Positions 19,216 to 60,957 of a DNA stretch of 64,000 bases are shown here, piece by piece. This DNA comes from Plasmodiophora brassicae. Taxonomy: Eukaryota. Every line of letters begins with the position of its first letter. Position 1 is the first letter of the stretch. The DNA is taken from positions 248,001 to 312,000 of the forward strand of contig CP145422.1 in the NCBI GenBank assembly GCA_036867785.1. The letters are read 5' to 3'. Both the position numbers and the translations under genes were made by a program. The notes beneath the pieces were generated by a model that was given only the letters and a program-made list of their open reading frames with translations, made no database searches and was not told the DNA's origin.

Positions 19216-19429
19216 ACCTGGCTCCCGTGGCGAGCGAGGCGGCAGCTGTCACGACTGAGTCGTGTTGGCGACTCAGCCGGCACCAAATTGGGCTCCTTCG
19301 TAGCGCACTAGGTACAATAAACGTCCACGGCGCGGACCGACCTCAGTCGGTCAATCCGTGTGGTTGACTCATCGTGTTCGGTCATCACATTTTGACCGAC
19401 TAACCTTCTGTCGTCGTCTTGTCTCGACT

Positions 19430-19695
19430 CGTATCGTATTGTGCCGTATCGTATCGTATTGTGCCGTATCGTATCGTATTGTGCCTTATCGTATCGTATT
19501 GTGCCGTATCGTATCGTATTGTGCCGTATCGTATCGTATTGTGCCGTATCGTATCGTATTGTGCCGTTTCGTATCGTATTGTGCCGTATCGTACCGTGCC
19601 GTACCGACTAACCTTCTGTCGTCGTATTGTCTCGACTCGTATCGTATTGTGCCGTATCGTATCGTATTGTGCCGTATCGTACCGTGCCGTACCGT
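19430..19695 (+). repeat. 20-bp tandem repeat (CGTATCGTATTGTGCCGTAT)n in the 5' leader of element A
   Basis: Directly visible. It generates the spurious RIVSYCAVSY ORFs. Confidence 0.9.
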
Positions 19696-23391: not shown

Positions 23392-24991
23392 GTGACAAGT
23401 CCGAGGAAGCCGACGAAACTGGCGCGTACACTACCCAGCGGCGGACCGCAGGCGTACACGTCGAGACCGTTATGTACAAATGTAATACGAAACAGAATCT
23501 GACGTAGGTACGTTAGGGTAAGCAGATACTGTATTGTTAATCCTGCTCAAATCGTGGAATACGGAAAGAAGCCTTGTGACGAGAAGTCGTAGTGAGCGGC
23601 GTTTTGCAAGATTCAGTGCGACCGGCTCGGGAGAGGGTGCCGGCTCGGGAGAGGGGTGCTGCATGAAGGCTGCGCAACCCCAGTGGACTCGACCCAGTCA
23701 GAGTCCGATCCGGGCTGCTCATTCGTGACGTGCGCCCACAACCACTCAAAGTGATATTGGGCGGTGTAGGTCGAGATGTCGCGACGAAGACGAGCATCGT
23801 CGAGGTACAAGTACGTCGGCCCTCTTGTCAGGTATCTGACTGTTGGCATTCGAACACAGACCTTCACGGGAAGCCCGTTCAGAGACTCAACGGTCAACGT
23901 CACCCAGTCCTGGCCCTACTCGTGATCCGTTTTCGGGCAGGGGGAAAGAACCCTTGCCACAGGGGCCGATTGCGGAATACCTGTCACCGGAGAATGTCAG
24001 GGCAGCAATGACGCCCCAGCGCAACGCGCTGCGGAGCGGGATGAAAACTCTGTGTGCCGCGTAGGTCAGGCATGGTTTGATATGACCTTATACAATCTGA
24101 CGAAACCGTGGTTGTATAGCTATTACAGTGACGAGTATTTGCTGTCGATGGGCGGACAGAAGAAGCCCACCACGATGAAGATCCATAATGACTTGAAGGA
24201 CTGGTTGAGGCATCGCGATGATCTCAGTGTAGAGGATGTCGACCAGTTCTCCTATAATCATACGAATCTTAGTAAGTGTGTATTTCCATGTAAACACCAC
24301 TGTTTCTGAATGTGTTAACTGCTCTTAGTGATCAAAACTGAGATTGCGAGGCGCCGAGATGATCTGGGGATACGCCATCACCAAGAGGGATCTCAGGTGC
24401 GTCGGAAGAATCGCATGACGATGATGATGATGAGGATTACACCTGGGTGCATCCCGACCTCGTTAAGATGACGGCTCGTCATATAAAGCGCGCCCAGCAA
24501 GAGCTGAGGAATCGGTAATACAGTTTCACGCTCCGGCGGGGTGCGATTCGTCGCAATGGATACGGGTTTCGTGCTTCGAATGCGCTACGAAATACGGTAG
24601 TAGAAGGGCTACAGCTGGGCTACATTAATGTAGCCGGTCTGTTACCGAACGGCTACATTTACGCTACATTAATGTAGCGTAACTGTAGCCTTCCGGCTAC
24701 ATCCAGACTACAAGTGTTGTAGCTAAAATGTGTCCAATCGGCTACATCTCAGATACATTGAATGTAGCGTGTATGCAATCAGGACACTGTTGCGACCTCG
24801 AGTTCGCAGTCCGTGGCGGAGTCCGTGGCGGAGTTCGTTGCTGACTGACCTATCTGGCTTTGCGGACATTCCGGACATTCTCACGGTGCTGCCATGGCAG
24901 TTCACGGACTACTAAAGTCATTCTGTTATTGTCCTGCTTGAGTTCACGTGTCCCGTGCTTCAATTGGTTTTGGGCCCATCCCAAGCCTACC

Positions 24992-25106
24992 TCTGTCCCT
25001 GTTTCTGTCCCTGTTCCTGTCCGTGTTCCTGTCCCTGTTCCTGTCCTTGTTCCAGTCCCTGTTCCTGTCCCTGTTCCTGTCCCTGTTCCTGTCACTGTTC
25101 CTGTTC
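24992..25106 (+). repeat. (CCTGTY)n hexamer repeat in the leader of element B
   Basis: Directly visible. Confidence 0.85.
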
Positions 25107-25186
25107 CAGCGTCCGAAGCCCCTCGTGATCCAGCTCGCGTCGTGACCGCCCGCGTTCCGTCTCCGTCTCTCTCGTGATCGCCCGCA

Positions 25187-26137
25187 ATGGCGGAAGACTG
25201 GAACCAGCTCGTTACAGGCCTTACCTCCCAGATCCAGATCCTTCAACAACAGCAACAGCAGCAGCAGCAGCTACTGCAGCAACAGCACGACCAACTGCTG
25301 CAACAGCAACAACAACTGACGCAGGCCCAGGCCTCCCCACAACAGCGAACGGTCTCACAGCATCATGCTCCTGAGCCCAAGGTCAAGCTTCCGCCCATGT
25401 ACAACGGCGGCCGGGGCGAACTTCGCGGCTTTCTGAACCAGATCAAGCTGGTTATCACTCAGCGGCCCAACACCTACGCGGCCGACGCTCAGAAGGTCGC
25501 GCTGGTGGGCCAGCTGTTGGGTGGGGACGCCCTAAAGTGGTTTAACCCACTGTTCGAGCGGAATAACGACCTGATGAAGGACTTCAGCGCCTTCGTCTCC
25601 GCAATCAAGAGCAGATTCGGGGACCCGAACCTCGCAGAGACCGCGGCCCGCAAGCTCCAGCACCTGCGTCAGGGCAGAGGCACTGTCGCCCGCTTCGCCA
25701 CAGAATTCCAGAATCTGGCGGCGGACGCTGGGTTCAACGACTCAGCCTGCCGACACATGTTCCGCGCCGGCCTGGCCAGGGACGTGCAGTTCCTGCTGCT
25801 GTCCCTACCCGTCGCCGAGACGCTTGACGAGCTTGTCATACAGGCAATTCGGTGCGACAACCGCCTGGCCGAGCACCGATCGGCCACCGCCCTCGTTCCT
25901 GTCCCTGCTGTCTCCGCCGCCGCAGTGCCGTCCGCTCCTTCCCCAGCCCCGGCCGCCGCGGTTGGGGATCCTATGGTTATCGACGCCGCGATCGGCGGTG
26001 GGCCCCGCGCGCCCTTAACCCAAGACGAGAAAGATCGCCGTCGTCGCGAAGGCCTGTGCCTCTACTGCGGGGTGGCTGGTCATGTCGCAGTGTCCTGCCC
26101 TGTGCGTCCGCAGGGAAACGCCTCCCGGCGTGGCTGA
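25187..26137 (+). CDS. gag: Element B gag (sushi/PEG10-like capsid plus CCHC knuckle, N-terminal polyQ)
   Basis: PKVKLPPMYNGGRGELRGFL, LRQGRGTVARFATEF, RRREGLCLYCGVAGHVAVSCP. Confidence 0.9.
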   Translation: MAEDWNQLVTGLTSQIQILQQQQQQQQQLLQQQHDQLLQQQQQLTQAQASPQQRTVSQHHAPEPKVKLPPMYNGGRGELRGFLNQIKLVITQRPNTYAADAQKVALVGQLLGGDALKWFNPLFERNNDLMKDFSAFVSAIKSRFGDPNLAETAARKLQHLRQGRGTVARFATEFQNLAADAGFNDSACRHMFRAGLARDVQFLLLSLPVAETLDELVIQAIRCDNRLAEHRSATALVPVPAVSAAAVPSAPSPAPAAAVGDPMVIDAAIGGGPRAPLTQDEKDRRRREGLCLYCGVAGHVAVSCPVRPQGNASRRG

Positions 26138-29100
26138 AATACCGGTCGGTCGCCACGTCTACCAATACACCTGTTCCATCATGTAACCCCGACCACTTCT
26201 CTCCCGAGCCAAGTATGATTTCCGCGTCCACCAACCTCGTCGAGCACTTGGACCGTGTCCTAAGCATAGACGTGTCCCTTCAACTCGACAATGGCAAGAC
26301 TGTACAGACGAAGGCACTTATCGACTCAGGAGCAACCAACGACTTCATACACTCCGACTTCGCCCGCGCTCACAACGTTCCGCTCACCAAGAAACCCGCA
26401 CCGGTAGATCTGGAGGTAATTGACGGGCGGCGGCTACCGAAGGTGGCGCTGGAAACGGCCCCTGTCCGCCTCAGCATCGGCAACCACTCCGAATCGATCG
26501 TGTTGAACGTAATCGACTCCCCACGATTCCCGATTATCCTCGGCATGACCTGGCTCTCGAGGCACAACCCGAACATTAACTGGACACGCCGAACGATGGA
26601 GATTACTCGTGTCACTCAGGACGCCGCGCGCGAACAGAGCGAACCCAAGGAAGCCATCACAGCCCTAACCTTGCACGACACTGACGTATTCCCTCAGCAA
26701 CCAGACCCACCACCTCAAGACCTCTCGCCACCCCCACGACACGAACGGCGGTCGAGGGCCCGTGTTGACAGCGGCAAGGCACCATACGCAGTCCCACTTC
26801 CCGGTGATTGGAACCAAGCCCAATGCCTCAAGCGGTGGCACCACCGACTCGGCCATCGTAACCTGCGGGACGTCATCCTGATGGCAAACCACGACCTCAC
26901 CGAATCCATGGAGATTCTGGCGCAGAAGGTTGACAAGTTCTGTGAAGGGTGCACTGTCGCGAAAGCCAAGGAACGCCCTTTCCCGTCGGAGTCCAAAGAC
27001 AAGGAGTGGAATGTTCTCGAGAGAATCGACGTCGACGAATGCGGTCCGCTTCCCGTTGCGTCACTCAATGGGGAACGGTACTTTATCACGTTCACAGAAT
27101 TCGCAACCAGGATGAAATTCACATTCCTGCTGCACCACAAGAACGAGGCGCTGACCAAGTTCAAAGAGCTCAAGGCACGAATTGAGAACCGCCTGGAGAA
27201 ATCCATTAAGATCCTGTTCGGTGACAACGATGGAGTATTCATCAACGACGAGTTCAAGGCGCTCCTGCAGGAATGCGGGATCGAATGGAGATCAACGGTG
27301 GAGTATTCTTCTAAGCAGAACGGCGTCTCCGAACGTGGCCACCTGACGCTCATGGACTCCGGCCGCGCAATGCTCGTACACGCAAGGCTTCCCAAGCAGT
27401 TCTGGGGACCCGCAATCCTGACTGCCAGCCACGTCCATAATCTCTGCCCCCACCCTCGCGATCCCACGACAACGCCCCATGAAAAGCTGTCGCGTTCGAA
27501 ACCCGACATCCGCTATCTCAGAACGTTCGGGTGCGACGCATATGGCTACGTCCCGTCCAGCCAGAGAACGAAGCTGGATCCACGCGCTGTGAAAGGCATC
27601 TTCATCGGATACGCGGACCACCAGAAAGGGTACGTTCTCTATCACCCGTCGTCCGGCCTAATCAAGGTGTACCGCAGCGTGACGTTCAACGAAGACAGCT
27701 TCGGCGGCCGCAGTGCAGATGACGCACTCGCTGATCCCGACGAGCCCGAGTCCGAATACGACGGCAACTACGTCCCCTCCGATGACGAATCCGCCGTCGA
27801 GGGGGCGCAGCTTGCAGGCCCCAGTGAGGATCCGCGGTCTCCCATTCAACGGGCTCGGCGTACCCCCCGCAAGCCAGACCGTCTTGGAGACCCCGTTCAT
27901 CACGCCTGGATCGCGTCACTGCAACCTACCCACGACGCCCCCATCCACCACATGTGGATAGGTTCCACACATCAATGCGAGGACGACGACGGCGCCACAC
28001 CCAGCGCAGAGGACCCCGACACTCCAACCACATACGAAGACGCTATGGCGAGTCCCGAGGCAGAGTTCTGGACCAAGGCGATGACCGATGAATTGAACAG
28101 CCTGACAGAGCACAAAACATGGGAAGCCGTCGAGCGACTACCCGTTGGGGCCCGTCCCATCGGATGTCGCTGGGTGTACAAGCGCAAAATCATGAAGACA
28201 AGTCAGGTTCCGCCAGACTCCACCTGGGTGCTTCGCCACGACCCCGATGGTGTCACCACCCACCGGTATAAGGCTCGCCTGTGTATACTTGGCTACAAAC
28301 AGCGCGAAGGCGTCGACTACACCAAGACGTACGCGCCAGTTATTCGCAGCGACATCCTCCGCCTAGTACTAGCCCTATCCGTCCACGACAAGGAGATTAT
28401 CGCAGAGCAGATGGACGTGATGACGGCATTTCTGAACGCCTACCTCACCGAAGAGATCTACATGGACTCTCCGAAGGGGTCGAAGGCCAGAACCCGCTTC
28501 GTCAAGCTCCTTCGATCGATCTACGGCCTGAAACAGGCACCAAGAGAATGGTTCAAGGTCATCGACGCCTTCCTCGTCAACGAATGTGGGTTCCAACGAG
28601 CCAAGTCCGCGTCGTGCTTGTACTTCAAACGTAGTCCAACCGGAAGGCTCGTCGTCGTTGGGGTCTACGTCGACGATATCCCCATCGTCGGACATCCCGA
28701 ACTTGTACACGAAACCAAGTCATCCCTCTCAAGGAGATTCAAGATGTCTGACATGGGTGAACTTCAATCCGTCATCGGCCTCGACGTGGATAGACAAGGT
28801 GGATCGGTGTTTCTGTCACAGGAACGCTACACGAAGACCATCATCGACACCTACGGCATGGCTGAATCGCGCCCCGTCTCGACACCGGCAGACGCGAACT
28901 TGAAGCTATCCACATCACTGTGCCCGCAGAACCAAGCTGACCGTGAACTGGTCGCGTTAGAAGGCCAGCGCATCAACTACCGAGCGGCAGTAGGCCACCT
29001 AATGTGGCTACTACACACTCGCCCAGACATCGCCTACGCTGTGAACGAGGTCTCACGTTATGTTCAAGACCCAGGGCCAGCCCATTTCGTCGCGCTGAAG

Positions 29101-29751
29101 CGGATCTTCAGGTACCTCAACGGCACGCGCAACTACGGGCTCCTGTTCGAAGGAGGTGGGGAAGCAACCACACCATTCCTAGTCGGCTATTCCGACTCTG
29201 ACTGGGCAGGAGACGTCGACTCACGTCGGTCAACTTCTGGATACGTGTTCCTTCTGAATGGCTGTCCGGTTTCGTTCCGTTCTAAGAAGCAGACCACAGT
29301 CGCGTTATCATCGTGCGAGGCGGAGACGGTGGCATCAACACTCGCGGCAACAGAAGGCGTATGGTTGCGCAATGTGCTGGACGAACTAGGTTTTCCACAA
29401 GCTCAGCCTACGCTCCTAAACGTGGACAACCAGGGGGCGATCGCGTTTGCCAACAGTGAAATCAACCACAGCAAAATGAAACACCTCGCGCTCAAGGATC
29501 ACTTCGTCAGAGAACTGGTGGCATCCAACCTGATCAAGGTGCACTATGTTCGCTCAAGTGACAATCTAGCCGATATCTTCACGAAGCCGCTGGGGAAGGT
29601 CAAGTTTGTCGAATTCCGGCAGGCTCTCAAGTGCGTACCTCGTCCTGACCGAATCCCGAACTCTTCGGTCGAGGGGGCGAATCAGGACACTGTTGCGACC
29701 TCGAGTTCGCAGTCCGTGGCGGAGTCCGTGGCGGAGTTCGTTGCTGACTGA
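26113..29751 (+). CDS. pol: Element B pol (PR-IN-RT-RNaseH), entered by a -1 frameshift
   Basis: Uninterrupted ORF with LIDSGAT, WHHRLGH..C..C, D-D-E integrase, QMDVMTAFLN, LLRSIYGLKQAPREW, YVDD, GYSDSDWAG, SSCEAE and ADIFTK. G GGA AAC at 26113-26119. Confidence 0.9.
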   Translation, partial: GKRLPAWLKYRSVATSTNTPVPSCNPDHFSPEPSMISASTNLVEHLDRVLSIDVSLQLDNGKTVQTKALIDSGATNDFIHSDFARAHNVPLTKKPAPVDLEVIDGRRLPKVALETAPVRLSIGNHSESIVLNVIDSPRFPIILGMTWLSRHNPNINWTRRTMEITRVTQDAAREQSEPKEAITALTLHDTDVFPQQPDPPPQDLSPPPRHERRSRARVDSGKAPYAVPLPGDWNQAQCLKRWHHRLGHRNLRDVILMANHDLTESMEILAQKVDKFCEGCTVAKAKERPFPSESKDKEWNVLERIDVDECGPLPVASLNGERYFITFTEFATRMKFTFLLHHKNEALTKFKELKARIENRLEKSIKILFGDNDGVFINDEFKALLQECGIEWRSTVEYSSKQNGVSERGHLTLMDSGRAMLVHARLPKQFWGPAILTASHVHNLCPHPRDPTTTPHEKLSRSKPDIRYLRTFGCDAYGYVPSSQRTKLDPRAVKGIFIGYADHQKGYVLYHPSSGLIKVYRSVTFNEDSFGGRSADDALADPDEPESEYDGNYVPSDDESAVEGAQLAGPSEDPRSPIQRARRTPRKPDRLGDPVHHAWIASLQPTHDAPIHHMWIGSTHQCEDDDGATPSAEDPDTPTTYEDAMASPEAEFWTKAMTDELNSLTEHKTWEAVERLPVGARPIGCRWVYKRKIMKTSQVPPDSTWVLRHDPDGVTTHRYKARLCILGYKQREGVDYTKTYAPVIRSDILRLVLALSVHDKEIIAEQMDVMTAFLNAYLTEEIYMDSPKGSKARTRFVKLLRSIYGLKQAPREWFKVIDAFLVNECGFQRAKSASCLYFKRSPTGRLVVVGVYVDDIPIVGHPELVHETKSSLSRRFKMSDMGELQSVIGLDVDRQGGSVFLSQERYTKTIIDTYGMAESRPVSTPADANLKLSTSLCPQNQADRELVALEGQRINYRAAVGHLMWLLHTRPDIAYAVNEVSRYVQDPGPAHFVALKRIFRYLNGTRNYGLLFEGGGEATTPFLVGYSDSDWAGDVDSRRSTSGYVFLLNGCPVSFRSKKQTTVALSSCEAETVASTLAATEGVWLRNVLDELGFPQAQPTLLNVDNQGAIAFANSEINHSKMKHLALKDHFVRELVASNLIKVHYVRSSDNLADIFTKPLGKVKFVEFRQALKCVPRPDRIPNSSVEGANQDTVATSSSQSVAESVAEFVAD

Positions 29752-32700
29752 CCTATCTGGCTTTGCGGACATTCCGGACATTCTCACGGTGCTGCCATGG
29801 CAGTTCACGGACTACTAAAGTCATTCTGTTATTGTCCTGCTTGAGTTCACGTGTCCCGTGCTTCAATTTATGCGTCCGAAAGGCTACATTTGAGATACAT
29901 TAATGTAGCATTCACGTGCCCGGGGTGCTACATTTGAGCTACATTCATGTAGCGTGTTTGTAGCCTTTCGGCCACAAACATGCTACATGAATGTAGCACA
30001 AATGTAGCCAACACGCTACAAACGTGACACAGGCATGTAGCACCTCTGTTGTCGGGCGGCTACATGAATGTAGCGCCGATGCACCATTGCAAAATACCAA
30101 AATGATGTAGCGCGCATGTAGCGAATCTGCTGCCTGTGCATGAGTCTGGGTCCTTCGTCTCTTCGGCGGGAACAGGAGACGTCGATGGGTCTGGGTCCTT
30201 CGTCTCTTCGGCGGGACCATTTGCAACAGTAAAGCGCGAGGATAGTCTCTCAGCTGGGGTCTCACCTCCTCCACGAAGCGTTCCTGCGCCTGCGTGTGCC
30301 ATCCCTTCAGCTGAATCACTCGAAACGTTGCCGCTTACATCCGTGTTTGTCGACGGCAAGCTGGCTTCCGTAGCTAATGACGACCACTCGGAGTGCCACA
30401 TTGCCACTGCTGCCGTCGACGACAGGCCGAGTCCTTCCGCTTTCGATTATGGTATCCCGGGGGTCGCCGCCTTCAATGATACTGTTGCCACCAGCCGCAC
30501 CGATCTCTTATCATTGCCCCGTTCAGGCTCCGAGTCCACGCCCCTTATGTCCTCCTTCCGGAACTGGGGCCCCGTTCGACGAAGGGTGAAACGGTCTCTC
30601 CCGCCGCCCCCGCCGCCTCCCTCCAATGGTGGCTTCCGAGACGGCCACAGCCTCAATCTTCTGATGTTCGCAACCTTTGTCGCCCTAGCCTGGATCCTAG
30701 TTGGGTGGCCGTATTTTCCAATAGCACAGCTGTGTACGAGCGCCTCTGCGGAGCCCCCGCCCTTGAATGCGCCCGCTGAGTCCTTCTTTGCACCTTTTGC
30801 TACGTTAGAGGATGACCAGGCCTCATCAACCTCGATCGCGTTTCTCAACCACGATCTCATGTTCCTGGACGCCGCCGCACGTGCGTTTGCCCACAAGCTA
30901 CATCGACGACAGATTCGTTCACCCCAATTCCTTAGCGAAGTTGATTTCGTTCATTGGACACCTGACGCCCTGACTCGTCGACTGGAGTACACACTGTCGC
31001 CTAATGATGAAGCAGTTCTTGCTAGGCCTCACCAAATGCTTCAACCCAGACAAGCCCGCAGCCCGTTCCCGGTGCGGCTAGAAGGGGACTATTATGTCAC
31101 GACTGAGTCGTGTTGGCGACTCAGCCGGCACCAAATTGGGCTCCTTCGTAGCGCACTAGGTACAATAAACGTCCACGGCGCGGACCGACCTCAGTCGGTC
31201 AATCCGTGTGGTTGACTCATCGTGTTCGGTCGTCACAGCAGCGCGCGCAGCGAGATATTTCTGCTTTCAGGGCGGGCCGACGAATGTTGACCGATGCAAA
31301 CTACGCTAGTTGCATGCTGTCCAACAATGCTTTGCCACTAATGAATACGGACGCCAGTACAAGTGTATACAACTAGATTCGTATTCATTACATATATCAA
31401 TGTCTAAATGCAACTCTCGAAATGCGCCATCAGGGTACGCCCTGGAAACGGGATACAGCGTCTCCAGATGCGACTCGGGAACCGACGGGAGGTTGCCCAC
31501 CCATTGTTGTACGCGTTGCTCTTCAGCACGCTGCCGTTTCAGCACATCTGCCGACCTGGCCACAGCCTCGCCGGCTCGCCTCGACCCACGCCGCCGGGAG
31601 CTCCGGCCCTTGTCTTGGACGAGCTGCGGCCAAGTATTTCTGTAGAGCGGGGCTCTATATTTAGCGTCTCGTGCCCGACCTCAAGATGCTGCTGTCCTGA
31701 GGAGGGGGTCCTGCTGTCCTGAGGAAAGGGGGCCTGCACGGATTTAGCTCCACTGTGATGGCAGGGCCGACGCCGTGGATGGGATGGATGATAAAGCTCA
31801 TTGGGATATTGGCTCGAGACTGACTACAGTGCGCACTCTGTCTGATCCCACACGTCTGACTTCGTCCCGCACCACGTTCGAGACGCTGCGCCATGGCATC
31901 GGAGACGACGTCCAGCACGGACGAGCATATTGGTGTCAAGGACGCGGATGTCAGCATCCTGCCACGGGTCGCGAAGTTGGACTCCACATCCATCTTGAAG
32001 TTGAAGGAGCAATATGATCGATATTGTGCAGTGGTGATCGACCGTGAGGGCAACCGTCCGGAAGCCGCGAGGATCAAGCCTCAAGCGATACGATTCTGCT
32101 TTACCACGCCGCAGCTGACCTGCATCGCGTTGAATCACCTGTTCCTGAACAATGTCGACCTGCTGACAGATGACGACCTGGAAGGATGGATCGAACCGCA
32201 GATCAAGAAGCTTCCAGCCAGTCATGGCCTGACGACCCAAGACATTGAGGCCAAAATCGCGAGTGAGCTGTCGATGGACACCAGCCTCCCGACTCTGAGG
32301 GATCAAGTTCAGTCGATCCTGGACCGCATGACTGAAATCCAGTGGAGACGAGGCTGGCAGCACATGCGCGAAACAGTCGGTGGGCGTAGAGCCCTTGGCC
32401 GTTTGTTGGTTGATACGCTTCAACCATGGAGGCTACGTGACTTCACAAGGCAATGGGTCAAGGAGGACAAGTCCAAGCGCGAAGGGGACCTGAAGGCGAT
32501 TATGAAGCAAGTGCAGGAGTGGATCATGCACAAGGTCGCTGTCAACGGTTCAGCCCAGACTGGTGGCGTATCCAAGAAGACCTGCGCCGAGCTCCGTCTG
32601 AACGACCGCAGCCACAAGTATCAGGTGGCGATCACGTCGGGGGGACGACGCGTTCGGGAACATCGTCCTCCTCCTCTGAATCGGCCGACCCGTCCGAAGC

Positions 32701-42846: not shown

Positions 42847-43584
42847 GTCGCGCAGCGTCCACGGCAACCGTCGGCTTCGGCAGACGGTTAATCCGTGTTG
42901 TGGAGACAATAATTGTCGTCCGTCGTGTCGTCTCCTGACATTTTAACCGTCTTTAACCGTCCGTAACCGTCTGTCGTCGCATCGTCTGTTACTCCGCTGT
43001 CGTTCCGCTTTGTTGTTCGTGTTCCGACCGGCGGTCTGTCCGCCCCCTTTGTTATTCCGATCGTATTGGTGACACGCACGCGCACCGGCTCGACGGGCTC
43101 GGTGGATGACGAAGCCAAGTGCCCAACTGCGCTATCATCGCCTTCTTCTCCCGTCGACCCAACGACTTTGCCCGCCGTGGACGCCGCCGAGCGCGCGCTT
43201 TCGGGCGCTTTGCGCGTCTTCCGGATCCAGCAGGATGCATTCTTCATTGAAATGCGAGCTCGCGCTGAGGAGCAGCTGAGGAGCTTTCACACCGTGCTCG
43301 CCAGCCGCCTGCTCGCTATGCCGCCTACGCCACCGCCGACCACAGATCCCTCCGCGACACCTGCTGAACCGTCGCCATATATCACCTTAGCCGATCCTGC
43401 TGTCACGACGACTAAGGTGTCGTTGAGCGAATTTCCGGTGATTCTGACGCTCTGCCGACGAGTGAGTGGTGAACCTATTCGCTAACATTGCCCGCATCAA
43501 CCTCTCGTCGACCCAGTCACTGTCAGCGGGCGCTCGCGCTCTCCTGGCTAGCTGCCTGAAGGGCGAAGCGCGTTTCGTGTTTCG
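42847..43584 (+). mobile_element. Element E2: truncated copy of family E (partial LTR plus gag 5' part)
   Basis: LTR remnant ending 42940. The gag is highly similar to 54227-54720 and is frameshifted. Confidence 0.85.
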
Positions 43585-52225: not shown

Positions 52226-52600
52226 TGTGACGACAGAGCAAGATGTGTCAACCACACGGATTGACCGACTGAGGTCGGTCCAACGCCGTGGACGTTTATT
52301 GTAGTAGTGCGCTGCGGAGGAGCCCAATTAGATGCCGGATGAGTCGCCAAGACAGCGACTCGACCATGACATAATCGCCCCCCTTTACGGGCGTCGAAGA
52401 CGGGGTCCGGACTTGTCTGGGTACCGAGCGTGGAATACCGGGAGCAGGCGATCGAATCCGCCGGTGCCCTGCAAGTTGGAGGCGGGTTCCCAGGTGCGCT
52501 CGGATGCAGACTAGCCTTCCCAGTCGATATAATACTGCAGCGTACCAGCACGGTATCGAGAGTCCAGGACTTCCTTCACGATGAACAGCGGTTGGTCGTC
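52226..52600 (-). mobile_element. Element A2: 3' end of an A-family element (chromodomain remnant, PPT, LTR)
   Basis: LTR 52226-52371 is a diverged reverse complement of LTR A. Upstream reads VLDSRYRAGTLQYYIDWEG*SASERTWEP. Confidence 0.8.
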
Positions 52601-52675: not shown

Positions 52676-55600
52676 ATCAGAGCCCAGTCAGACATAGTCA
52701 GAGACACTGACGCACTTTTTGTTCGCCCACTGCAGGGGACTGACTGGCCTCTAATAGAGGCCCAGTCGCGAGCAGTTGTCCGCTGACTGGGAGCCCGCCA
52801 CGCAAATTTTGTAGTGCGTGAAGTGGATCGCGCTCGCTTTGAAATTTGCAAACCGGCAGGATGACACGGCACCGACAAGAGGGAAATGCTGGAGGTGCCC
52901 GCAAAGGGAGCGGCGCTCCGACCAAGGCAGCTCGTGATGCCAAGGACGCTGCGCAACGGGCTCAACGACTGCAAAGCATGAGATTTTTCCAGCCACAGGA
53001 ATACGAGCGAATTTCCGGGCCCTCTGCGTCTGACCCACAGACTTCTGCTACCACTAGCCCTTTTCGTGCAGATATCAACAACGTGGGTACGGGCTCATTT
53101 GCGCGGCCCATGCAGAGTGCTGTTTCTCCACCTGTAAGCGGCGTAGACTGGCGACGCTGGTGTTTATTCATGTTTACCCAGGGTCACGTACAGAATGCCA
53201 ACGAACAGCTGCGGCAGGCCATCGACGATGCAGTCGATATGACGAATGAGGCCGACTTTTCCGATATCGACACGGATGCTGACTCCGCGTGGGATGATTC
53301 AACAGACGATGAGTCCGACGATGACAACGACTGCGAATTTGATGACAATGATGACGCTGCCGAGATGGGCGGAGAGCGCTTAGATGCCGGTTTTGCACAT
53401 CGCCATCTGTATCGGCTCAAGGAGGACATCAACGTCGGTGCTAGGGCGTATAGCGGTCAAACCGACATTAAAGACTCGCAGGGCAATACAGTTGCGCAAT
53501 CGACAATCGACCGCTGCCGAGAGGAGTACCAGCGCATTCGTGATGGTCATATCAGAAGGTCTCCGCCCGACCCGATTGCCGTGTCTGGCCTCCGTAAAAA
53601 CGGCCTTTTCCCGCCAGATCCATTCTGTAAGGCTGGTGATCAAACGCTCGTACCAGTAAGCTGACTTCATGACCAGATGTTCCGGAAGTAAGATTGTTTC
53701 TTCCGGAAATGCTCCTTCCTGGATTTGTCCCCGAGTGCCCGTTAGGTCATAAGAACGAGGCCGTTAAACTCAATGGGTGGAATTCTAACCCGATCGCAAG
53801 ACGGGTGTATTGCGCGACTGCAGAGAATGGATTCGGTTGGTACCTGCTAATGTACAAGGTATTGGCGAGTACGCTTGTTCGTGCACCACTACTCTAACTG
53901 TGAACGATACAGCGTTACGTTTGTAATGGCTGCCGAAGTCGTCGGGAAGGTATGAAACACGAACTTCTTGCTTGTTATGGCACGGCCGCGACGGGGGTCG
54001 CGCAGCCGCGCAGTTTGAATAAACGTCCACGGCAACCGACGGCTTCGGCAGTCGGTTAATTCCGTGTTGTGGAGACAATAGTCGTCCGTCGTGTCGTCTC
54101 CTGACATCTTAACCGACTTTAACCGTTCGTCACCGTCTGTCGTCGCCTCGTCTGTCGCCGTCTGTCGTCGCATCGTCTCTCGTTCGGCCTGTCCGCCCCA
54201 TTCGTTCTTTGATCGTGTACGTATCGATGACGGTCACGCGCTCCGGTTCGACGAGCTCGACGGCTGACGAAGCCAAGTGCCCAACAACGCCTCCCTCTCC
54301 CATCGACCCAACGACCCTGGCTGATGTGGACGCCGCCGATCGCGCCCTCGCGGGTGCCTTACGGGCCTTCCAGATCCAACAGGATGCGTTCTTCACGGAA
54401 ATGCGGGCTCGCGCTGAGGAGCAGCTGAAGATCTTTACCACCGCGCTCGCCAGTCCACACTCTACGCCGCCTACGCCCATGACCGATCCCTCGGCAACAT
54501 CTGCTGAGCCGTCGTCACATCGCAACGATCCTGTTGTCACGACGACTAAGGTGTCGTTGAGCGAATTTTCCGGCAATTCCGACGACCTGCCGGCGAGCGA
54601 GTGGCTGGCGCTATTCGCTAGCATTGCCCGTGTCGATCTCTCGTCGACCCAGCCACTGTCAGCGGGCGCTCGCGCGCTCCTGGCTAGCTGCCTGAAGGGC
54701 GAAGCGCGTTTCGTTTTTCGTCAACTGGATGCGACCGCCTCCCCAGCAGCGTTCGCCGTGCTGCTCCGGTTTAATTTTCCAGAACCGGACGTCGAGACCC
54801 TAGAATCCCGGTTCGACGCTCTTCGTCAAACGGGACCGTTCGATGCTCATCTGCGTCGGTTAATGTATCTGTACAACGCCGTACAGTCGGCCTCGAAGGG
54901 CGAGTACATTCTCCCGTCAAAGCGCCTGGCGACGAAGTTCCGCAAGTCGCTCGTCCCAGAGCTTTCGACGGAGCTTTTCAAGCTCAATCCGCCGACATTC
55001 GACGCCATGGTCAAAGAGGCAGCGCGCCTGGCCCCCCTCTATGCCCCGGCACACGCGCTCCTCGCTAAGGATGTCTCGCCGGCCAGTCGGACCAAGCTAA
55101 CGCCGGAGGAGCGCGAGCGCTGCAAACGGCAAGGATTGTGCATGTATTGCCGGCAGCCTGGACATATGGTCGAAACATGCCCACATCGTCCGCCGGGAAA
55201 TGGTCAAGGGTGACTGCTCCCGGGTTGGCAGCTCACCCTCTCTCGATACACGAATGTTCTTCGTCCTCGCAACCCGACACTGTCCTCGTCACTGCTCTTT
55301 GTTTCGCAACTGCTCATTCATCTCATCATTTACTCGTTCCGTTCCAATCCACGGGTGATCGCCCGTGGGCGACGACGGCCCTTTTGGACTGAGGAGCGAC
55401 ATCTTCCTTCGTCGACGCCGGTTTCGCCCGCCGCTATGGCCTGCCGCTCCGCTCCAAAGCACAACCGATTCCAGTCAAGGTTGTTGACGGCCGTCACCTG
55501 CCACCGATCACATTGGAGACGTCGCCATTGCCGTGTTCCGTCAACGGGGCCTTCCACGACACAATTGTCCTCAACGTTATTGACGCTCCGAGTCACCGTA

Positions 55601-55739
55601 TCATTCTGGGGCTGCCCTGGCTCGAACAGCACAATCCGGATATCGACTGGCGTCGTCGCACCGTACGCGAACGTCTTACTCGGGGATCACCGCGTTTGTG
55701 GCTCGATGCTCGGGCCGGTGGGAACCCCACCGGCTCTGC

Positions 55740-55915
55740 CGACACGGTTGGCTGCTCTGCTGCCACGGTCGCCCTTTCTGATGACACGGTCGCCTGCTCT
55801 CCTGACACGGTCGCCTGCTCTCCTGACACGGCCGTCTGCTCTCCTGGCACGTCCGTCTGCTCTCCTGACACGGCCGTCTGCTCTCCTGACACGTCCGTCT
55901 GCTCTCCTGACACGG
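55740..55915 (+). repeat. 21-bp in-frame tandem repeat (DTAVCSP-like) in the PR-RT spacer of E
   Basis: About 8 copies of a GACACGGYCGYCTGCTCTCCT-like unit. Confidence 0.85.
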
Positions 55916-58013
55916 CCGCGTTATTATGCAGCGCCGACGGGTTGCCCGTCGAACCCGGACCGCTTCCGAACGCACCGCCTTCGGACATTGATCACTTCCT
56001 CGCCTCGTCGTCTCCCGTTACTGCCCAGCCGTTACCACCGGTGGGTGCTTCTCTGGTCGTCGTCGACGTTCCGGAACTAGTGCAGCCTGCGCCTGCTACT
56101 GACCAGCCATTAGTGCCGGTGGCTGCTTCTCTGGTCGACGGTCCGGAACTAGTGCCGCCTGTGTCTGCCGCTGATCGATCAGTGAATTCCGCCGCACCGC
56201 CTGCGCCGGCGACCGCAGCTACCGCCAATGTTCCGCCACCGCTCCCGCCTCTTTCGTGCTTGGCACCCATATCGGCGGCCCCCTCTTGTTCAGAACCTCC
56301 CTCGGTTTCGCCGGCACGCCGCCGCGCGGGTCGACGCACCTCTTTCGCCTGCTCAGGGCGCAGCATGCCACGCGGGTCACTCGCCTCCCGGCTGTGTGCG
56401 CTCGTTGGGCTGGTCGCCCTCCTGGCATTGATCGCCAACAGCTCCGCCCTGAGACGTGCGCCTTCCATGCTTCCGGATCCCTGCGTCATCGACAACGCCT
56501 TGCTGACTGCCGTGCCGCAGGCCTCCACGTCGTCGCCGGTTGGCACGGATCCGTTGACTACGGAGCCGCCAGGCGAACCTGTGGAGCCGCTCTCCATCGC
56601 GTTTGTTTCCGCCGAACCGTTCTTAGACGACGTGCAAGACGGCGCAGACTGCAATGCCATCCACTACACATGGTCACCGTCCGATTCCGCTGCCCACGCC
56701 GCGGAACTACCGCCGCAATATCAGGAGTTTACTGACGTCTTCGATAAGGCGGACTCAACGACTTTTCCTGATCACCGACCGTTCGACTGTCCGATTGACC
56801 TGAAACCCGGTGGCGACCCGCCGTATTGCCGTCTGTACGGGCTGTCACCCCGGGAACAAGAAGCCTTGAAGGAGTATCTCAAGATCAATCTGGAAGCTAA
56901 TCTCATTCGTCCATCCCGTTCATCGGCGGGCGCCCCAATTCTGTTCGTCAAGAAGAAGGACGGTAGTCTTCGCCTGTGCGTAGACTACCGCGGTCTAAAC
57001 TCTGTTACTCTCAAGAACCGATATCCGGTTCCACTTATCGACCAGCTCTTGATCCAGCTGGGCTCCGGAACAATCTTCACGAAAATCGACCTCCGCAGCG
57101 CCTATAACCAAGTTCGGATCCGAGAAGGCGATGAGTGGAAGACGGCCTTCCGCACGCCGTACGGCTTGTTCGAGTACTTAGTCATGCCGTTTGGCTTAGC
57201 CAACGCGCCGGCCTCCTTCCAGTACTTCATGAACGAGACGTTCAAGGATTTCCTTGATGTATTTGTGGTAATCTACTTGGACGACATCCTGATCTACTCA
57301 TCGACTCCCGAGGACCATGAACGCCATGTCCGTCTCGTCCTAGAGCGACTCCGCACTGCTCAACTCCACGCTAAACTGGAGAAGTGCGTCTTCAATACGG
57401 TCGAAGTGGAATTCTTAGGTTTCTTGGTGTCCTCCTCCGGGATACGGGTTGACCCCTCCAGGATCGATTGCATTCTCTCGTGGCAACAGCCGACCGGCGT
57501 CCACGGGGTGCAGGTATTTCTCGGGTTCGCTAACTTCTATCGCAAGTTCGTTCCCCACTTCGCAGAACTGGCCTTACCGCTGACAAAACTCACGCGTGAT
57601 AACGTGCCGTTTCGTTGGGACCAATCGGCAGAAGCCGCATTCACGGCGCTCAAGGTTGCTTTCACGTCAGCCCCTGTCCTTGCTCATTTCGACCCAGATC
57701 GCCCGTGCGAAGTGGAAACGTATGCTTCCGATTTCGCGGTGGCAATGGTATTGTCGCAGCGGGGGCCCGATGATGAACTTCACCCGTTGGCATTCTTCTC
57801 GCGCAAGCTCGCGCCTGCTGAGATCAATTTTCCTATCTACGACAAGGAACTTCTCGCGGTCGTCCAGACCTTCGAGAAGTGGCGTCAGTTCCTGGACTCA
57901 TCGCGGCATCAGACCGTCATCCACAGCGATCATCGGAATCTGGAGTACTTCACCAGGACTCACAAACTGAATCGTCGTCAAGTCCGATGGTCCCAACTGC
58001 TTAACGAATTTGA

Positions 58014-58209
58014 TGTCAAGGACCATGTCGTATCACCGGCACACGGTGACGCCGTGACTGTGCGCGACTGCGTAACGTCCACGGCAGAGGCTCCGCCACT
58101 GACGCCGTTGTCGGTAACGGCTTGTCAAGCCCCTGTTACACAGCGTTACGTCGCCGCCGTCTCGCGCCGATGTCGGTCGGAATAAATCACTTCGTTATTG
58201 TCTTCCTCA
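58014..58209 (+). mobile_element. Solo LTR, family F, at the RNaseH end of E
   Basis: Homologous to 39232-39427. Interrupts NEFD/FVI. No clean 5-bp TSD. Confidence 0.85.
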
Positions 58210-60957
58210 ATTTCGTTATCCAACACCGACCAGGCCGTCTTCATGGCAAGGCGGACGCCCTGACTCGTCGCCCCGAATACGCGCCTTCTGATCAGGATGA
58301 GGTTGTGCTCCAGCAGTCACTCCTGCTCCTTCCACCGTCGCGGCTCGGGCCAGGACCTCTACAGGAGGTCCAGATCCACGTGACCGATACTCCAACCGAC
58401 GCACTCCTCGATCGTATCCGCCGCAACCAAGCTTCCGACCCGTGTGTGTGGCGTACCCGTCAGCGACTTCATCGTCCGAGCGGCCGCCACTTTAGCGTCC
58501 GAGACGACGTTCTATACCGTGGACATTCTGTGGTTGTCTCTGGCGGTGACTGCAAACTGGACATTCTTCGCTATTTCCACGATAATGTCACGGCGGGCCA
58601 CCTCGGTATTCGAAAAACTGTGCAGTTAATTCGCCGCGAATTTTGGTGGCCGGGCTTAACCCCTTTCGTAACCCGTTACGTGCTCTCCTGCGATACGTGT
58701 CGTCGGACTAAGACGGCTCGGCACAAGCCCTTCGGATTACTCATGCCACTCCCTCTGCCGACGACTCTTTGGCGGTCCATTTCCATGGACTTCGTGGTTA
58801 AGCTTCCCTGCTCGAACGGGTATGACTCCATCCTCGTCGTCGTTGACCGCCTCTCCAAGATGGCGCATTTTATTCCTTACAACGAAACAATATCATCTGT
58901 CGACCTTGCCGCCTTGTTTCTAGCAAATGTCTTCCGCTTACAAGGCCTCCCTGACGATATCGTGTCGGACCGAGGGCCTCAGTTCATCGCTAAGTTCTGG
59001 AAGCAACTTCTCATACGTCTCGGCGTGCAACGCAACCTGTCTTCTTCGCGGCACCCAGAATCCGATGGCCAAACCGAGCGGGTGAACCAAGTCATGGAAC
59101 AGTATCTCCGTGCGTACGTCAACTACTTACAAGACGACTGGCAGCCGCTCCTTGCCGTAGCTGAATTTTCGTACAACAATGCAGACCATACCGCGACAGG
59201 TATGTCACCGTTTTTCGCAAATTATGGCTACCATCCACGTGTGATGGACGTGCAACATCGACCGTCTACCAGCGCCAATCCGACTGCCGACGAGCGAGCT
59301 GAGTCCTTGCAGAGGATTCGCAACTTCTTGACCCGCCCAATTGACTCGAGCTTCTGCCGATTCCAAACGATTCGCCGACGCGAAGCGGCAAACGTCTCCG
59401 AAGTTTCAGGTGGGCGACTTAGTGATGTTACGTCGCGGCTCCCTGAAAACTCTGCGACCCTGCGCGAAGCTCGACAACCAATTTTTAGGGCCATTCCCTA
59501 TCAGCCAACTCGTCAATCCGGTTGCCTTTCATGTATCTCAACTCGAGCCTTACGTCGCCAACCTTATCCCTGGTCGCACACAACCTCCTCCTCCACCGAT
59601 TCTTCTCGCGGATGACGATGCTCCCCTCTTCATCGTTCACGATGTTCTCGATTCTCGATATCGCCGTTCCCGATTGGAATATTTGATCGACTGGGAGGGG
59701 TACCCGCCTTCCGAACGCACGTGGGAACCCGCAGGAGAACTACACGGTACAGGTGGGCTCAACGAATTGTTGGCTAACTTCCACGCTCGGTACCCAACCA
59801 AGCCGTGGCTGAAGTGGCGAAAGCCACCCCGCAGGCCGGCCCGATGACAAGGGACTATACTGTTATGGCACGGCCGCGACGGGGGTCGCGCAGCCGCGCA
59901 GTTTGAATAAACGTCCACGGCAACCGACGGCTTCGGCAGTCGGTTAATTCCGTGTTGTGGAGACAATAGTCGTCCGTCGTGTCGTCTCCTGACATTGCTC
60001 AAGGACGTAATTTGGATGACACAACCGTGAGGAAGAAGCTCCCGAAATACTCCTTCACTGCTGTCCGCAATGACGTTCGGATAACGCTGCCGATGCAGAT
60101 TCAGCTAATGTTGCCCCTGTTCACACACAGGGGATGTCTTGGCCGTTCGCTTGTCCGCTGGCTTCGAACCGAAAGGGCATCCGGAATGAGTATGTCTTCG
60201 TGTTATGAATCTGTCAAGGAACAGCTTATGTCGGCGTACGAGGAGAAGCATTACGCCTTCTTATGCATGAACGTTGGCCGATTGCGTCAGCTTGAAACCT
60301 TGGGGATACCACCTCCTGCAATGCCACGGCCGCAGTTCAGCGATTTCGATGATCCAGAGGGGTATGGCGGTGCTTACCCTGGCAGGCGTCTTCTGGCCAC
60401 AGCTCTGAAACTGGAGATGAGGCGTATTGCTCCAGCAATGGAGCGGGAGATGCAGGCCATTCCTGTCAGGTAGGTGTGCGGATGGATAGCTATCGCGTTA
60501 CAATTCAGAGACTGAATGTGGGGATCCTTGTAGCAAACTATCGCTTGATCACTCCCATAAGATTGCCCATCGCCAACAATACTCTGAAGGCGAGCAGGTC
60601 AATGGAGGACACTTTACTGGGATGAACGAGGTCGGTTTGATTCGTCTCTTCAGTTTAGTTCACAGCACCTCCCATTCCGAGATGGAACGGCCGCTTCGCA
60701 TGATGAAAGAAACGTTAGACGCGAATGGGTACCCCGGGCTTACTCAAGTCTGTGTCGACAACTGCTGCCATTTACGGGCGTACCTTGAGACTTTATTTCC
60801 TTCCTTGAAGAATGATGTTCAGCCAGTCGAGTGCAGATCTCGTTATTCACATCTTACGAACTTCTCCATCCCTGCGGATGTTAATATTCTATACGCTGAC
60901 AACATGGCCCGTGCCGAATCCATCTGCCACGGTCTCGTTCTTGACCTGAACAGCAAG

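What the first reader, a model, noticed from the sequence alone, without database searches (positions are those of the whole stretch)
19335..19401. Covarying LTR/PBS complementarity in three chromovirus copies, suggesting tRNA-independent self-priming
Seen: none of these copies has a TGG tRNA PBS. Two nt after each 5' LTR is a 10-mer complementary to a site inside the LTR. A: AGTCGGTCAA (19345) / TTGACCGACT (19392). E: AGTCGGTTAA (54050) / TTAACCGACT (54109). E2: AGACGGTTAA (42882) / TTAACCGTCT (42943). The substitutions are compensatory. The same LTR site also pairs with an upstream arm that covaries too (GACCGAC, AACCGAC, AACCGTC; TTCG loop in E and E2), and follows AATAAACGTCCACGGC, which is conserved in A and E. 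Established: Tf1/sushi-group elements self-prime using their RNA 5' end. Inference: this is self-priming in a protist, plus an alternative hairpin that could act as a switch or function in the 3' LTR.
Basis: partly seen in the sequence, partly recalled or inferred. Interest (0 to 1): 0.7.

Follow-up and report, generated by a model that had tools for sequence, protein, structure and literature searches.

The report
Self-priming retrotransposons in a clubroot-like protist
A family of LTR retrotransposons, most likely in the genome of the clubroot protist Plasmodiophora or a close relative, appears to start copying its RNA into DNA with a piece of its own RNA rather than a host tRNA, a mechanism already known from fission-yeast Tf1 elements.

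Summary
In three copies (A, E, E2) a 10-nt site lies exactly 2 nt after the 5' LTR. It is perfectly complementary to a site 45-59 nt before the LTR end, and it changes in step with that site. No TGG-type tRNA site is present.

When the RNA is folded from the LTR-internal site, all three copies give the same shape. It has a 10-bp end-to-PBS helix and a U5 stem, which are two of the three duplexes of the Tf1 'pretzel'. An AATAAA box lies 29-32 nt upstream, at TATA distance.

Only E is a demonstrable chromovirus. A is a gag-protease-only element and E2 is a 5' fragment. The nearest named relatives of E are Plasmodiophora brassicae proteins.

Twelve of 23 related environmental contigs show the same layout with unrelated primer sequences.

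The upstream 'alternative hairpin' is also real. It extends into the conserved CGTCCACGGC block and recurs in other lineages. It would mask the primer wherever U3 sequence is present.

Verdict: Tf1-type self-priming, a new host lineage for a known mechanism. The transcript start was not measured. The masking hairpin is the only possibly new element.

The parts
19247..19389 (+). Element A, 5' LTR (143 bp, TGT..ACA)
   Evidence: 142 of 143 identical to 31095-31237. Flanked by target-site duplication GCAGC.
19316..19331 (+). AATAAACGTCCACGGC block. AATAAA lies 29 nt before the primer site. CCACGG is the outer 5' arm of the U3/R hairpin.
19335..19341 (+). Arm 1 (GACCGAC), a 7-nt copy of the PBS core that pairs with 19346-19352
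   Evidence: (p about 0.01)
19345..19354 (+). Putative self-primer AGTCGGTCAA, the predicted first 10 nt of the transcript
19358..19390 (+). U5 inverted-repeat stem-loop (arms 19358-19369 and 19380-19390)
   Evidence: MFE folds; pair counts
19392..19401 (+). PBS TTGACCGACT, 2 nt after the LTR end
31095..31237 (+). Element A, 3' LTR
24777..29868 (+). Ty1/copia element nested inside A (not part of the mechanism)
   Evidence: 189-bp LTRs 100% identical. RVT_2, rve and gag domains.
52226..52361 (-). Reversed 3' end of a second A-like copy, with LTR, hairpin and primer site
53973..54106 (+). Element E, 5' LTR (134 bp). AATAAA at 54018, arm 1 at 54034-54040, primer AGTCGGTTAA at 54050-54059.
54109..54118 (+). 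Element E PBS TTAACCGACT
54113..59847 (+). Element E coding region: gag 54113-55213, PR-RT-RH 55393-58185, integrase 58050-59615, SH3 plus chromodomain in a shifted frame at 59332-59847. pol is interrupted by a 197-bp LTR-like insert at 58013-58209.
   Evidence: Pfam hits
59861..59994 (+). Element E, 3' LTR, followed by target-site duplication TTGCT
   Evidence: An empty-site joint is seen in run X8.
42856..42952 (+). E2: 3' part of a 5' LTR. Arm 1 AACCGTC 42866-42872, primer AGACGGTTAA 42882-42891, LTR end 42940, PBS TTAACCGTCT 42943-42952. E-like gag follows to about 43585.

Best explanation
A, E and E2 belong to one family of Ty3/gypsy LTR retrotransposons. E is an autonomous chromovirus, A is a gag-protease-only relative, and E2 is a 5' fragment. 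They start minus-strand DNA synthesis by Tf1-type self-priming.

Inferred steps:
1. Transcription starts about 30 nt after the AATAAA box, at AGWCGGTYAA.
2. These first 10 nt fold back on the 10-nt PBS that begins 2 nt after the 5' LTR. A U5 inverted-repeat stem helps the fold.
3. RNase H cuts after nt 10, and the freed 3' OH is extended into U5.
4. Plus-strand synthesis later copies the primer. The PBS is therefore rewritten to match the primer in each cycle, which explains the exact co-variation.

The last 25 nt or so of U3 (CCACGGC plus arm 1) are complementary to the first 20 nt or so of R. Wherever U3 is present the primer is therefore locked in a stable hairpin. This applies to the 3' end of the RNA, to plus-strand strong-stop DNA, and to transcripts started too far upstream. 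Only the authentic 5' end is free to prime.

What is shown: the sequence layout, the co-variation and the predicted folds. What is inferred: the transcript start, the cleavage and the role of the hairpin.
For: Position: the complement starts exactly 2 nt after ..ACA in A, E and E2. This is where a PBS must lie so that integrase can trim 2 nt.

Specificity: 10-nt complement, p 0.0003-0.0007. It is absent from the copia, C, D and D1 elements of the same window.

Co-variation: 54 of 54 cells paired and 3 pairs changed on both sides. Three of the 4 E/E2 substitutions form the pairing triple (p about 8e-4).

Folds from the putative start: the same two-helix structure in all 3 copies, -25.7 to -26.3 kcal/mol, z -4.4 to -4.7. 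It is unchanged with longer 3' context. Passages of the S. osmophilus genome preprint describe the Tf1 'pretzel' as primer:PBS plus two flanking duplexes. A yeast transposon review states that the first 11 nt of Tf1 RNA pair with the PBS and are cut by RNase H.

Promoter geometry: across the 3 window copies and 12 relatives, 13 of 14 TATA-like motifs found between -90 and +40 lie at -36 to -28 from the primer's first base. About 1 would be expected if they were spread evenly.

Relatives: of 23 IMG/VR loci, 12 show PPT-TGT..ACA, a spacer (2 nt in 11, 3 nt in L062) and a 9-11-nt PBS complementary to an LTR-internal site, each with a different primer sequence.

Tree: E groups with two P. brassicae proteins (SH-aLRT 99). 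It then groups with self-priming-type L066 and L069 and with frog and fish elements (94), apart from seed-plant chromoviruses.

Hairpin: -22.8 to -23.6 kcal/mol in A, E and E2, z about -3.3. It also forms in DNA folds of the LTR plus PBS strand. A PBS-like arm of at least 6 nt lies directly upstream of the primer in 9 of 15 elements.

Activity: E's LTRs are identical, and one run shows the empty site.
Against: - No RNA evidence was obtained. All laid runs are contigs whose RNA status is a guess, and the transcript start is inferred only from a TATA-like box.
- E2 has no such box.
- If AATAAA is instead a poly(A) signal inside R, as passages of the LTR-structure paper read it for sushi LTRs, the start would lie upstream. 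The primer would then be internal and mostly locked in the hairpin.
- With a start at the primer, R plus U5 is only 45-57 nt, and where R ends is unknown.
- The third 'pretzel' duplex was not found.
- Co-variation rests on 3 PBS-bearing copies.
- The host tRNA set could not be compared.
- In the relatives the LTR borders (except L062) were inferred from PPT/TG..CA signatures on circularly permuted metagenome contigs. My complement scan had a high background. Pairing is imperfect in 6 of 12: one G.U in 4, one mismatch in L070, two mismatches in L073.
- The PBS-like arm is weak or absent in 6 of 15 elements.
Confidence: 0.78

Rival explanations
1. The helix is structural, and the real primer is something else. 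It might occlude the PBS, or serve in packaging, dimerisation or translation control, like the U5-leader stems of retroviruses.
For: Retroviral leaders do contain U5 stems around the PBS. Reference titles seen, and passages, mention the U5-IR. No direct priming evidence was obtained here.
Against: The 3' arm of the helix occupies the only place where a PBS can be, at +3 to +12 after the LTR. That stretch has no TGG or other recognisable primer complement. Exact tracking of the LTR site by this stretch is what copying of the primer predicts.
Confidence: 0.1
2. A host RNA primes synthesis: a tRNA half, an internal tRNA fragment or another small RNA. The LTR-internal copy would be incidental or a mimic of it.
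For: Half-tRNA PBSs exist in copia lineages, according to passages of the plant LTR-retrotransposon survey. One relative, L074, has a PBS starting TGG and an LTR site ending CCA, like a tRNA 3' end. The host tRNA set could not be examined.
Against: Three PBS variants would need three matching host RNAs. An incidental LTR copy would have no reason to change in step. No tRNA-like or other Rfam match was found in either LTR region, even at E up to 10. The PBS lacks the TGG needed for a tRNA 3' end.
Confidence: 0.05
3. Self-priming occurs, but the primer is internal. Transcription starts upstream of AATAAA, R contains the poly(A) signal, and the U3/R 'hairpin' is really an R hairpin present at both RNA ends. 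It would compete with PBS pairing as a riboswitch-like control, or separate 5' from 3' poly(A) use.
For: AATAAA followed by a GT-rich stretch (TCCGTGTGG) fits the conserved poly(A) module described for LTRs, including sushi, in passages read. In RNAs starting at AATAAA the hairpin wins in A and E, but the PBS helix wins in E2.
Against: TATA-like boxes sit at -29 to -35 from the primer in 12 of 15 elements, including true TATAAATA or TATAAGTA boxes in relatives. U3 would shrink to under 70 nt with no other A/T-rich promoter motif. In the fission-yeast elements the self-primer is the RNA 5' end.
Confidence: 0.12
4. The complementarity is chance, or a shared-ancestry artefact with no function.
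For: Only three related copies carry a PBS in the window.
Against: Shuffle p is 0.0003-0.0007 per copy. The compensating triple has p about 8e-4. The same layout appears with unrelated sequences in 12 of 23 environmental relatives.
Confidence: 0.02

Closest known systems
Tf1/Tf2 of Schizosaccharomyces pombe, with Tj1, Tosmo1-3 and Tcry1 of other fission yeasts
   Same: Chromodomain-bearing Ty3/gypsy elements with no tRNA PBS. A short stretch of the element's own RNA is complementary to a PBS just after the 5' LTR: 11 nt in Tf1 and 10 nt here. Extra U5 duplexes are present, and a TATA box lies upstream of a start that coincides with the primer (passages).
   Different: The host is a rhizarian-like protist. 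The LTR is only 134-143 bp. Only two of the three 'pretzel' duplexes are predicted. A strong hairpin spans the U3/R border and masks the primer. I saw no mention of such a hairpin for Tf1, but the primary papers were not held. The transcript start and cleavage are untested here.
Tf1/sushi group in vertebrates (sushi-ichi) and Tcn1-like elements of fungi, mosses and lycophytes
   Same: Self-priming is predicted from sequence alone, as here. E's RT groups with frog and fish elements and Ustilago rather than with seed-plant chromoviruses.
   Different: No named Tf1, sushi or Tcn1 sequence could be put in the tree, so clade membership is not shown. For SM-Tcn1, passages read report that neither a tRNA nor a self-priming site was found.
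Skipper chromoviruses of Dictyostelium (a protist host)
   Same: A protist chromovirus that lacks the TGG signature.
   Different: Skipper has a polypyrimidine stretch and no LTR complement, so its authors propose another, unknown priming mode. The elements here have a clear LTR complement.
tRNA-primed LTR retrotransposons and retroviruses
   Same: PBS 2 nt after ..CA of the LTR, a U5 inverted-repeat stem, a PPT before the 3' LTR and 5-bp target duplications.
   Different: There is no complement to a tRNA 3' end. The PBS follows an element-internal sequence instead.

Membership tests
Tf1-type self-priming LTR retrotransposon | No PBS complementary to a tRNA 3' end (TGG...) next to the 5' LTR | tested here: met
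   The first 25 nt after the LTR in A, E and E2 hold no TGG. There are no tRNA-like Rfam hits.
Tf1-type self-priming LTR retrotransposon | [quoted passage not shown] | tested here: met
   10 of 10 Watson-Crick pairs in 3 of 3 copies, spacer 2 nt, p 0.0003-0.0007.
Tf1-type self-priming LTR retrotransposon | The complementary LTR sequence is the very 5' end of the transcript | tested here: inconclusive
   Indirect evidence only. A TATA-like box lies at -29 (A) and -32 (E), there is none in E2, and 13 of 14 such motifs across 15 elements fall at -36 to -28. No usable RNA data.
Tf1-type self-priming LTR retrotransposon | Three-duplex 'pretzel' RNA structure (primer:PBS plus two duplexes between PBS-adjacent and LTR sequences) | tested here: inconclusive
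   Primer:PBS and one U5 stem are predicted in all 3 copies. No third duplex appears with 40 nt of extra 3' sequence.
Tf1-type self-priming LTR retrotransposon | RNase H cleavage of the RNA duplex releases the primer | not testable with these tools
   Needs biochemistry. E does encode an RNase H domain.
Tf1/sushi ('fungi/vertebrates') clade of chromoviruses | RT/IN phylogeny places the element with Tf1, sushi and Tcn1 | tested here: inconclusive
   Quick LG+G4 tree of 42 RT-RH rows. E groups with P. brassicae, frog and fish elements and L066/L069 (SH-aLRT 94) and apart from seed-plant elements. No named Tf1/sushi reference was available.
Chromovirus (Ty3/gypsy with integrase chromodomain) | Chromodomain at the C-terminus of integrase | tested here: met
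   E: PF00385 at E 2.5e-12 and SH3_Tf2-1 at 9e-9, in a shifted frame at 59332-59844. This is not met for A, which has no RT, IN or chromodomain. It cannot be tested for the E2 fragment.
tRNA- or half-tRNA-primed element | PBS matches a host tRNA 3' end or fragment | not testable with these tools
   No genome is held and there is no tRNA gene in the window. A match to a 3' end is excluded by the missing TGG.

The most novel reading that the evidence does not exclude
The last 25 nt or so of U3 are a built-in 'anti-primer'. They are a PBS look-alike plus an anti-U5-stem segment, and they form a hairpin of about -23 kcal/mol with the first 20 nt or so of R. The transcript start lies at the apex of this hairpin, so the genomic RNA's 5' end lacks the masking arm and can self-prime. 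Every molecule that still carries U3 has its primer copy locked away. That includes the RNA 3' end, plus-strand strong-stop DNA (whose 3' PBS could otherwise fold back) and read-in transcripts. This would be a general, previously undescribed fidelity device of self-priming retroelements. It recurs with unrelated sequences in independent lineages: the window family, L069, L062 and the L065/L067/L070/L073 group.
Probability: 0.3. Interest if true: 0.6.

Novelty: new member of a known kind. Interest (0 to 1): 0.4.

Why it matters
Self-priming is documented for fission-yeast elements. It is inferred for fungal, vertebrate and non-seed-plant relatives. In the searches I ran I found no report for Plasmodiophora, Rhizaria or other protists with a clear LTR complement. 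Supplements and the primary Tf1 papers could not be seen.

The finding extends the host range of the mechanism. It gives a recently active family (identical LTRs, polymorphic insertion) in which 5'-end mapping could test the mechanism. It also shows that many environmental chromoviruses share the layout.

The U3/R masking hairpin, if confirmed, would add a new control element to the self-priming model. The relative whose primer ends in CCA bears on how tRNA priming and self-priming are related.

Tried and rejected
- **Whole genome.** None is held, so there is no host tRNA set, no family census and no R-scape-scale test. There are no tRNA genes in the window.
- **Earlier notes.** Nothing by place or by sequence.
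- **Metagenome scan.** A scan with an LTR pattern that left the primer free gave 55 loci.
- **IMG/VR scans.** The 16-mer gave 5 chance hits. A single-protein RT query gave none.
- **Sequencing runs.** No RNA holder is listed. The four runs laid are contigs whose RNA label is a guess. The contig start at 54078 is where 31-mers first leave the LTR, so it gives no transcript-start information. No begin/end pile-ups were seen.
- **Rfam on both LTR regions.** No relevant match.
- **Third 'pretzel' duplex.** Not found.
- **My scan for CA-spacer-complement pairs in 3-kb regions of 21 loci.** The background was high, with shuffles reaching 9-14 nt. Candidates were therefore accepted only with a PPT-TGT start, an ..ACA end, a following gag and a TATA box. 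An L070 candidate (CAAGAAGAA) and the palindrome-array hits in L076, L078, L080 and L083 were rejected.
- **Unresolved loci.** L064 and L075-L083 (10 of 23). L063 looks tRNA-primed (TGG start).
- **Other window elements.** D1, C, D and copia have no self-complement.
- **Papers not held.** Lin & Levin 1997 and 1998 and the Esnault & Levin review. Butler 2001 was not looked up.

Full report
**1. The observation**

The motif AGWCGGTYAA occurs 9 times in the window, against 0.35 expected. Self-alignment defines three elements.
- Element A: LTRs 19247-19389 and 31095-31237, 142 of 143 bases identical.
- Element E: LTRs 53973-54106 and 59861-59994, 100% identical.
- Element E2: a 5' fragment, alignable to E from 42856 to about 43585.

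All LTRs read TGT..ACA. A is flanked by GCAGC and E by TTGCT, both 5-bp target-site duplications.

In each 5' LTR copy the LTR ends in ..ACA. A 2-nt spacer follows (TT, TC, TT). Then comes a 10-mer that is the exact reverse complement of a site 45-59 nt before the LTR end.
- A: TTGACCGACT against AGTCGGTCAA.
- E: TTAACCGACT against AGTCGGTTAA.
- E2: TTAACCGTCT against AGACGGTTAA.

No TGG lies in the 25 nt after the LTR.

A 10-nt match is rare by shuffling (p 0.0003-0.0007). The nested copia and elements C and D have only 4-6 nt matches (p 0.64-1.0). The D1 repeat has 6 nt (p 0.46).

On the three-row alignment, 54 of 54 cells of the two helices pair. Three pairs change on both sides, and slid controls pair at 35-48%.

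Between E and E2 there are only 4 substitutions in 98 aligned columns. Three of them are the mutually pairing positions of arm 1, primer and PBS. In a simulation, at least 3 of 4 random substitutions fell in paired columns with all pairs kept in about 8e-4 of trials.

**2. What the copies are**

E encodes gag with a zinc knuckle, protease, RT, RNase H and integrase. In a shifted frame it also encodes a Tf2-type SH3 domain and a chromodomain (PF00385, E 2.5e-12). E is therefore a chromovirus.

E's pol is interrupted by a 197-bp LTR-like insert at 58013-58209. Contigs in all four laid runs lack this insert. Other copies differ by a 1-base indel near 59336.

A shares only gag (35% identity) and protease (55%) with E. 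It has no long plus-strand frame beyond the protease, and it carries a nested Ty1/copia element at 24777-29868.

E2 has the LTR 3' part and the gag N-terminus. The RT downstream of it is only 24% identical to E's and belongs to another element. 'Three chromovirus copies' is therefore too generous.

A fourth LTR, reversed at 52226-52361, is the 3' end of an A-like copy.

**3. Host**

No genome is held. The nearest named proteins to E's RT-RH are two Plasmodiophora brassicae entries, at 76% and 71% identity. Frog, Ustilago and Planoprotostelium elements follow at 50-57%, and seed-plant elements at 43-46%.

The window is 59% G+C and packed with LTR elements. Passages of a 2026 preprint say P. brassicae genomes hold 11-14% transposable elements, dominated by Gypsy and Copia, in blocks such as one of about 67 kb. 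The holders of this DNA include soil and plant metagenomes.

One run shows the empty site of E (joint 53967 to 59995 with 5 shared letters). E is therefore a polymorphic, recent insertion.

**4. Mechanism**

When the RNA is folded from the LTR-internal site to just past the PBS, A, E and E2 give the same minimum-energy structure.
- A 10-bp helix forms between the RNA's first 10 nt and the PBS.
- It encloses a stem between the sequence just after the primer (CCGUGU..) and the LTR end (..ACAU).
- The energy is -25.7 to -26.3 kcal/mol, z -4.4 to -4.7, and 0 of 200 shuffles fold as well.
- The structure persists with 40 more nucleotides.

This matches what passages of the literature describe for Tf1. 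The first 11 nt pair with the PBS and are cut off by RNase H. The 'pretzel' has a central primer:PBS duplex and two flanking duplexes. Only one flanking duplex is predicted here.

The geometry is right for priming. The primer's last base pairs with the first PBS base, so the first bases copied are the 2-nt spacer and then the LTR end.

In any primer-copying scheme the plus strand copies the primer. The PBS is thus rewritten to match it. This is established knowledge for retroviral PBS/tRNA pairs, and it is inferred here. Exact tracking of the LTR site by the PBS is therefore the footprint expected if the LTR site is the primer.

**5. Where transcription starts**

No usable RNA data were obtained, so the evidence is indirect.

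AATAAA lies 29 nt (A) and 32 nt (E) before the primer's first base. It is the only A/T-rich motif in these GC-rich LTRs.

Across the 3 window copies and 12 relatives, 13 of 14 TATA-like motifs found between -90 and +40 lie at -36 to -28. About 1 would be expected if they were spread evenly. In several relatives the box is a true TATAAATA or TATAAGTA.

E2, L066 and L069 have no such motif.

There is a competing reading. AATAAA followed by a GT-rich stretch is the conserved poly(A) module of many LTRs, including sushi. It may serve both roles, or the start may lie upstream.

**6. Relatives**

Scans of IMG/VR with RT and integrase alignments gave 23 loci. Most are circularly permuted contigs with assembler-size terminal overlaps.

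Twelve loci show the same layout with quite different primer sequences: L061, L062 and L065-L074. The layout is a PPT, TGT..ACA, a spacer and a 9-11-nt PBS complementary to an LTR-internal site. The spacer is 2 nt in 11 loci and 3 nt in L062.
- Pairing is perfect in 6.
- It has one G.U in 4.
- It has one mismatch in L070.
- It has two mismatches in L073.

L063 has a TGG-type PBS. Ten loci were left unresolved (L064, L075-L083).

Three caveats apply. Borders other than L062's were inferred, not seen as two LTR copies. The raw complement scan is noisy. Metagenome contigs of multi-copy families can be chimeric.

In a quick tree of 42 RT-RH rows, E sits with the P. brassicae proteins (SH-aLRT 99). 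It lies in a group with L066/L069 and frog and fish elements (94), apart from the seed-plant group that holds L076-L083 (100). No named Tf1 or sushi sequence was available.

**7. The alternative hairpin**

The arm upstream of the primer (GACCGAC, AACCGAC or AACCGTC) is a 7-nt copy of the PBS core, and it co-varies with the primer.

The conserved CCACGGC pairs with the conserved CCGUGUGG after the primer. The resulting structure is -22.8 to -23.6 kcal/mol in A, E and E2 (z about -3.3), and -19.7 kcal/mol in the reversed copy.

It therefore sequesters both the primer and the 5' arm of the U5 stem. It excludes the priming fold, which has similar stability. It also forms in DNA folds of LTR plus PBS.

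A PBS-like arm of at least 6 nt directly upstream of the primer recurs in 9 of 15 elements with unrelated sequences. Examples are AGAACTC-CATC-GAGTTCT in L065 and L067, and an 8-bp stem in L069. It is weak or absent in L061, L066, L068, L071, L072 and L074.

The predicted start lies at the apex of the hairpin. The simplest reading is that the masking arm is U3-only. It would leave the true 5' end free and lock the primer copy wherever U3 is present. This is inference.

Alternatives are a role in 3'-end formation or a competing fold in upstream-started RNAs. Tf2 is known to be regulated by choice of start site.

**8. Comparison and verdict**

The layout matches Tf1-type self-priming. This mechanism is documented for fission-yeast elements. 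It is predicted for sushi, Tcn1 and plant Tcn1 and TAR lineages. It differs from Dictyostelium Skipper, which lacks an LTR complement.

In six literature searches I found no report of it in Plasmodiophora, Rhizaria or other protists, and no description of a U3/R masking hairpin. The primary Tf1 structure papers and all supplements were out of reach.

The finding is a new member of a known kind, in a new host lineage. It carries one possibly new structural feature.

Noticed in passing
window 58013-58209; also 39232-39429, 40046-40243, 40798-40995, 50700-50896(-): A 197-bp LTR-like repeat (TGTC..TCA). It is very high-copy in the laid DNA run: depth about 16,000 in its bin against roughly 400-1,300 in the other bins. 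One copy interrupts E's pol, and contigs in all four laid runs join across it. It contains an ACGTCCACGGCA block like the A/E LTR core and an AATAAA. Three copies lie 750-815 bp apart in tandem, like a miniature terminal-repeat element. No self-complement after the LTR (6 nt, p 0.46).
   Followed up: partly
window 24777-29868: A Ty1/copia element is nested in A. It has 189-bp LTRs that are 100% identical, target-site duplication TATGC, and unusual LTR termini (AATC..CAATT rather than TG..CA). The stretch after its 5' LTR holds a GGGCCC palindrome. Its primer type was not worked out.
   Followed up: no
window 19429-19685: A 20-nt tandem array (12.4 copies, consensus TCGTATCGTATTGTGCCGTA) lies directly after A's PBS. 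It is inside the open stop-to-stop frame that continues into gag. Part of the leader, including ACCGACTAACCTTCTGTCGTCGT, is duplicated at 19603.
   Followed up: no
L074:100-197: A relative whose LTR-internal primer-like site ends in ..ACCA and whose 11-nt PBS starts with TGG. It looks like a tRNA 3' end copied into the LTR, with TATAAATA at -32. It is either a tRNA-primed element with a coincidental LTR copy or a possible link between tRNA priming and self-priming.
   Followed up: partly
L076, L078, L080, L083 (LTR/leader regions): Environmental chromoviruses that group with seed-plant elements carry arrays of palindromic CTCGCCTAGGCGAG-like repeats around the LTR end. These swamp any search for a self-primer. 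Their meaning is unknown.
   Followed up: no
window 55272: In run X1 (RNA status only a guess) a 1,208-nt contig covering 54078-55272 continues into 13 A's that are not in the window. The point is 59 nt after the gag stop. This could be a polyadenylated gag-only transcript or another genomic copy. It is a single contig and is unverified.
   Followed up: no
window 31641-41808: Another Ty3/gypsy element (C) has 188-bp LTRs that are 97.9% identical and several nested insertions. The stretch after its 5' LTR (GTGCGCACTCTG..) has neither TGG nor an LTR complement, so its primer is unknown.
   Followed up: partly
window 19377-19383: A's U5 contains TCGGTCA, a second 7-nt complement of its own PBS. 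In folds that include U3, the PBS pairs with this site instead of the primer. E and E2 lack it.
   Followed up: no
window 53967-59999: Run X8 holds a contig that joins 53967 to 59995 with 5 shared letters. This is the empty target site, so E is absent from that isolate.
   Followed up: partly
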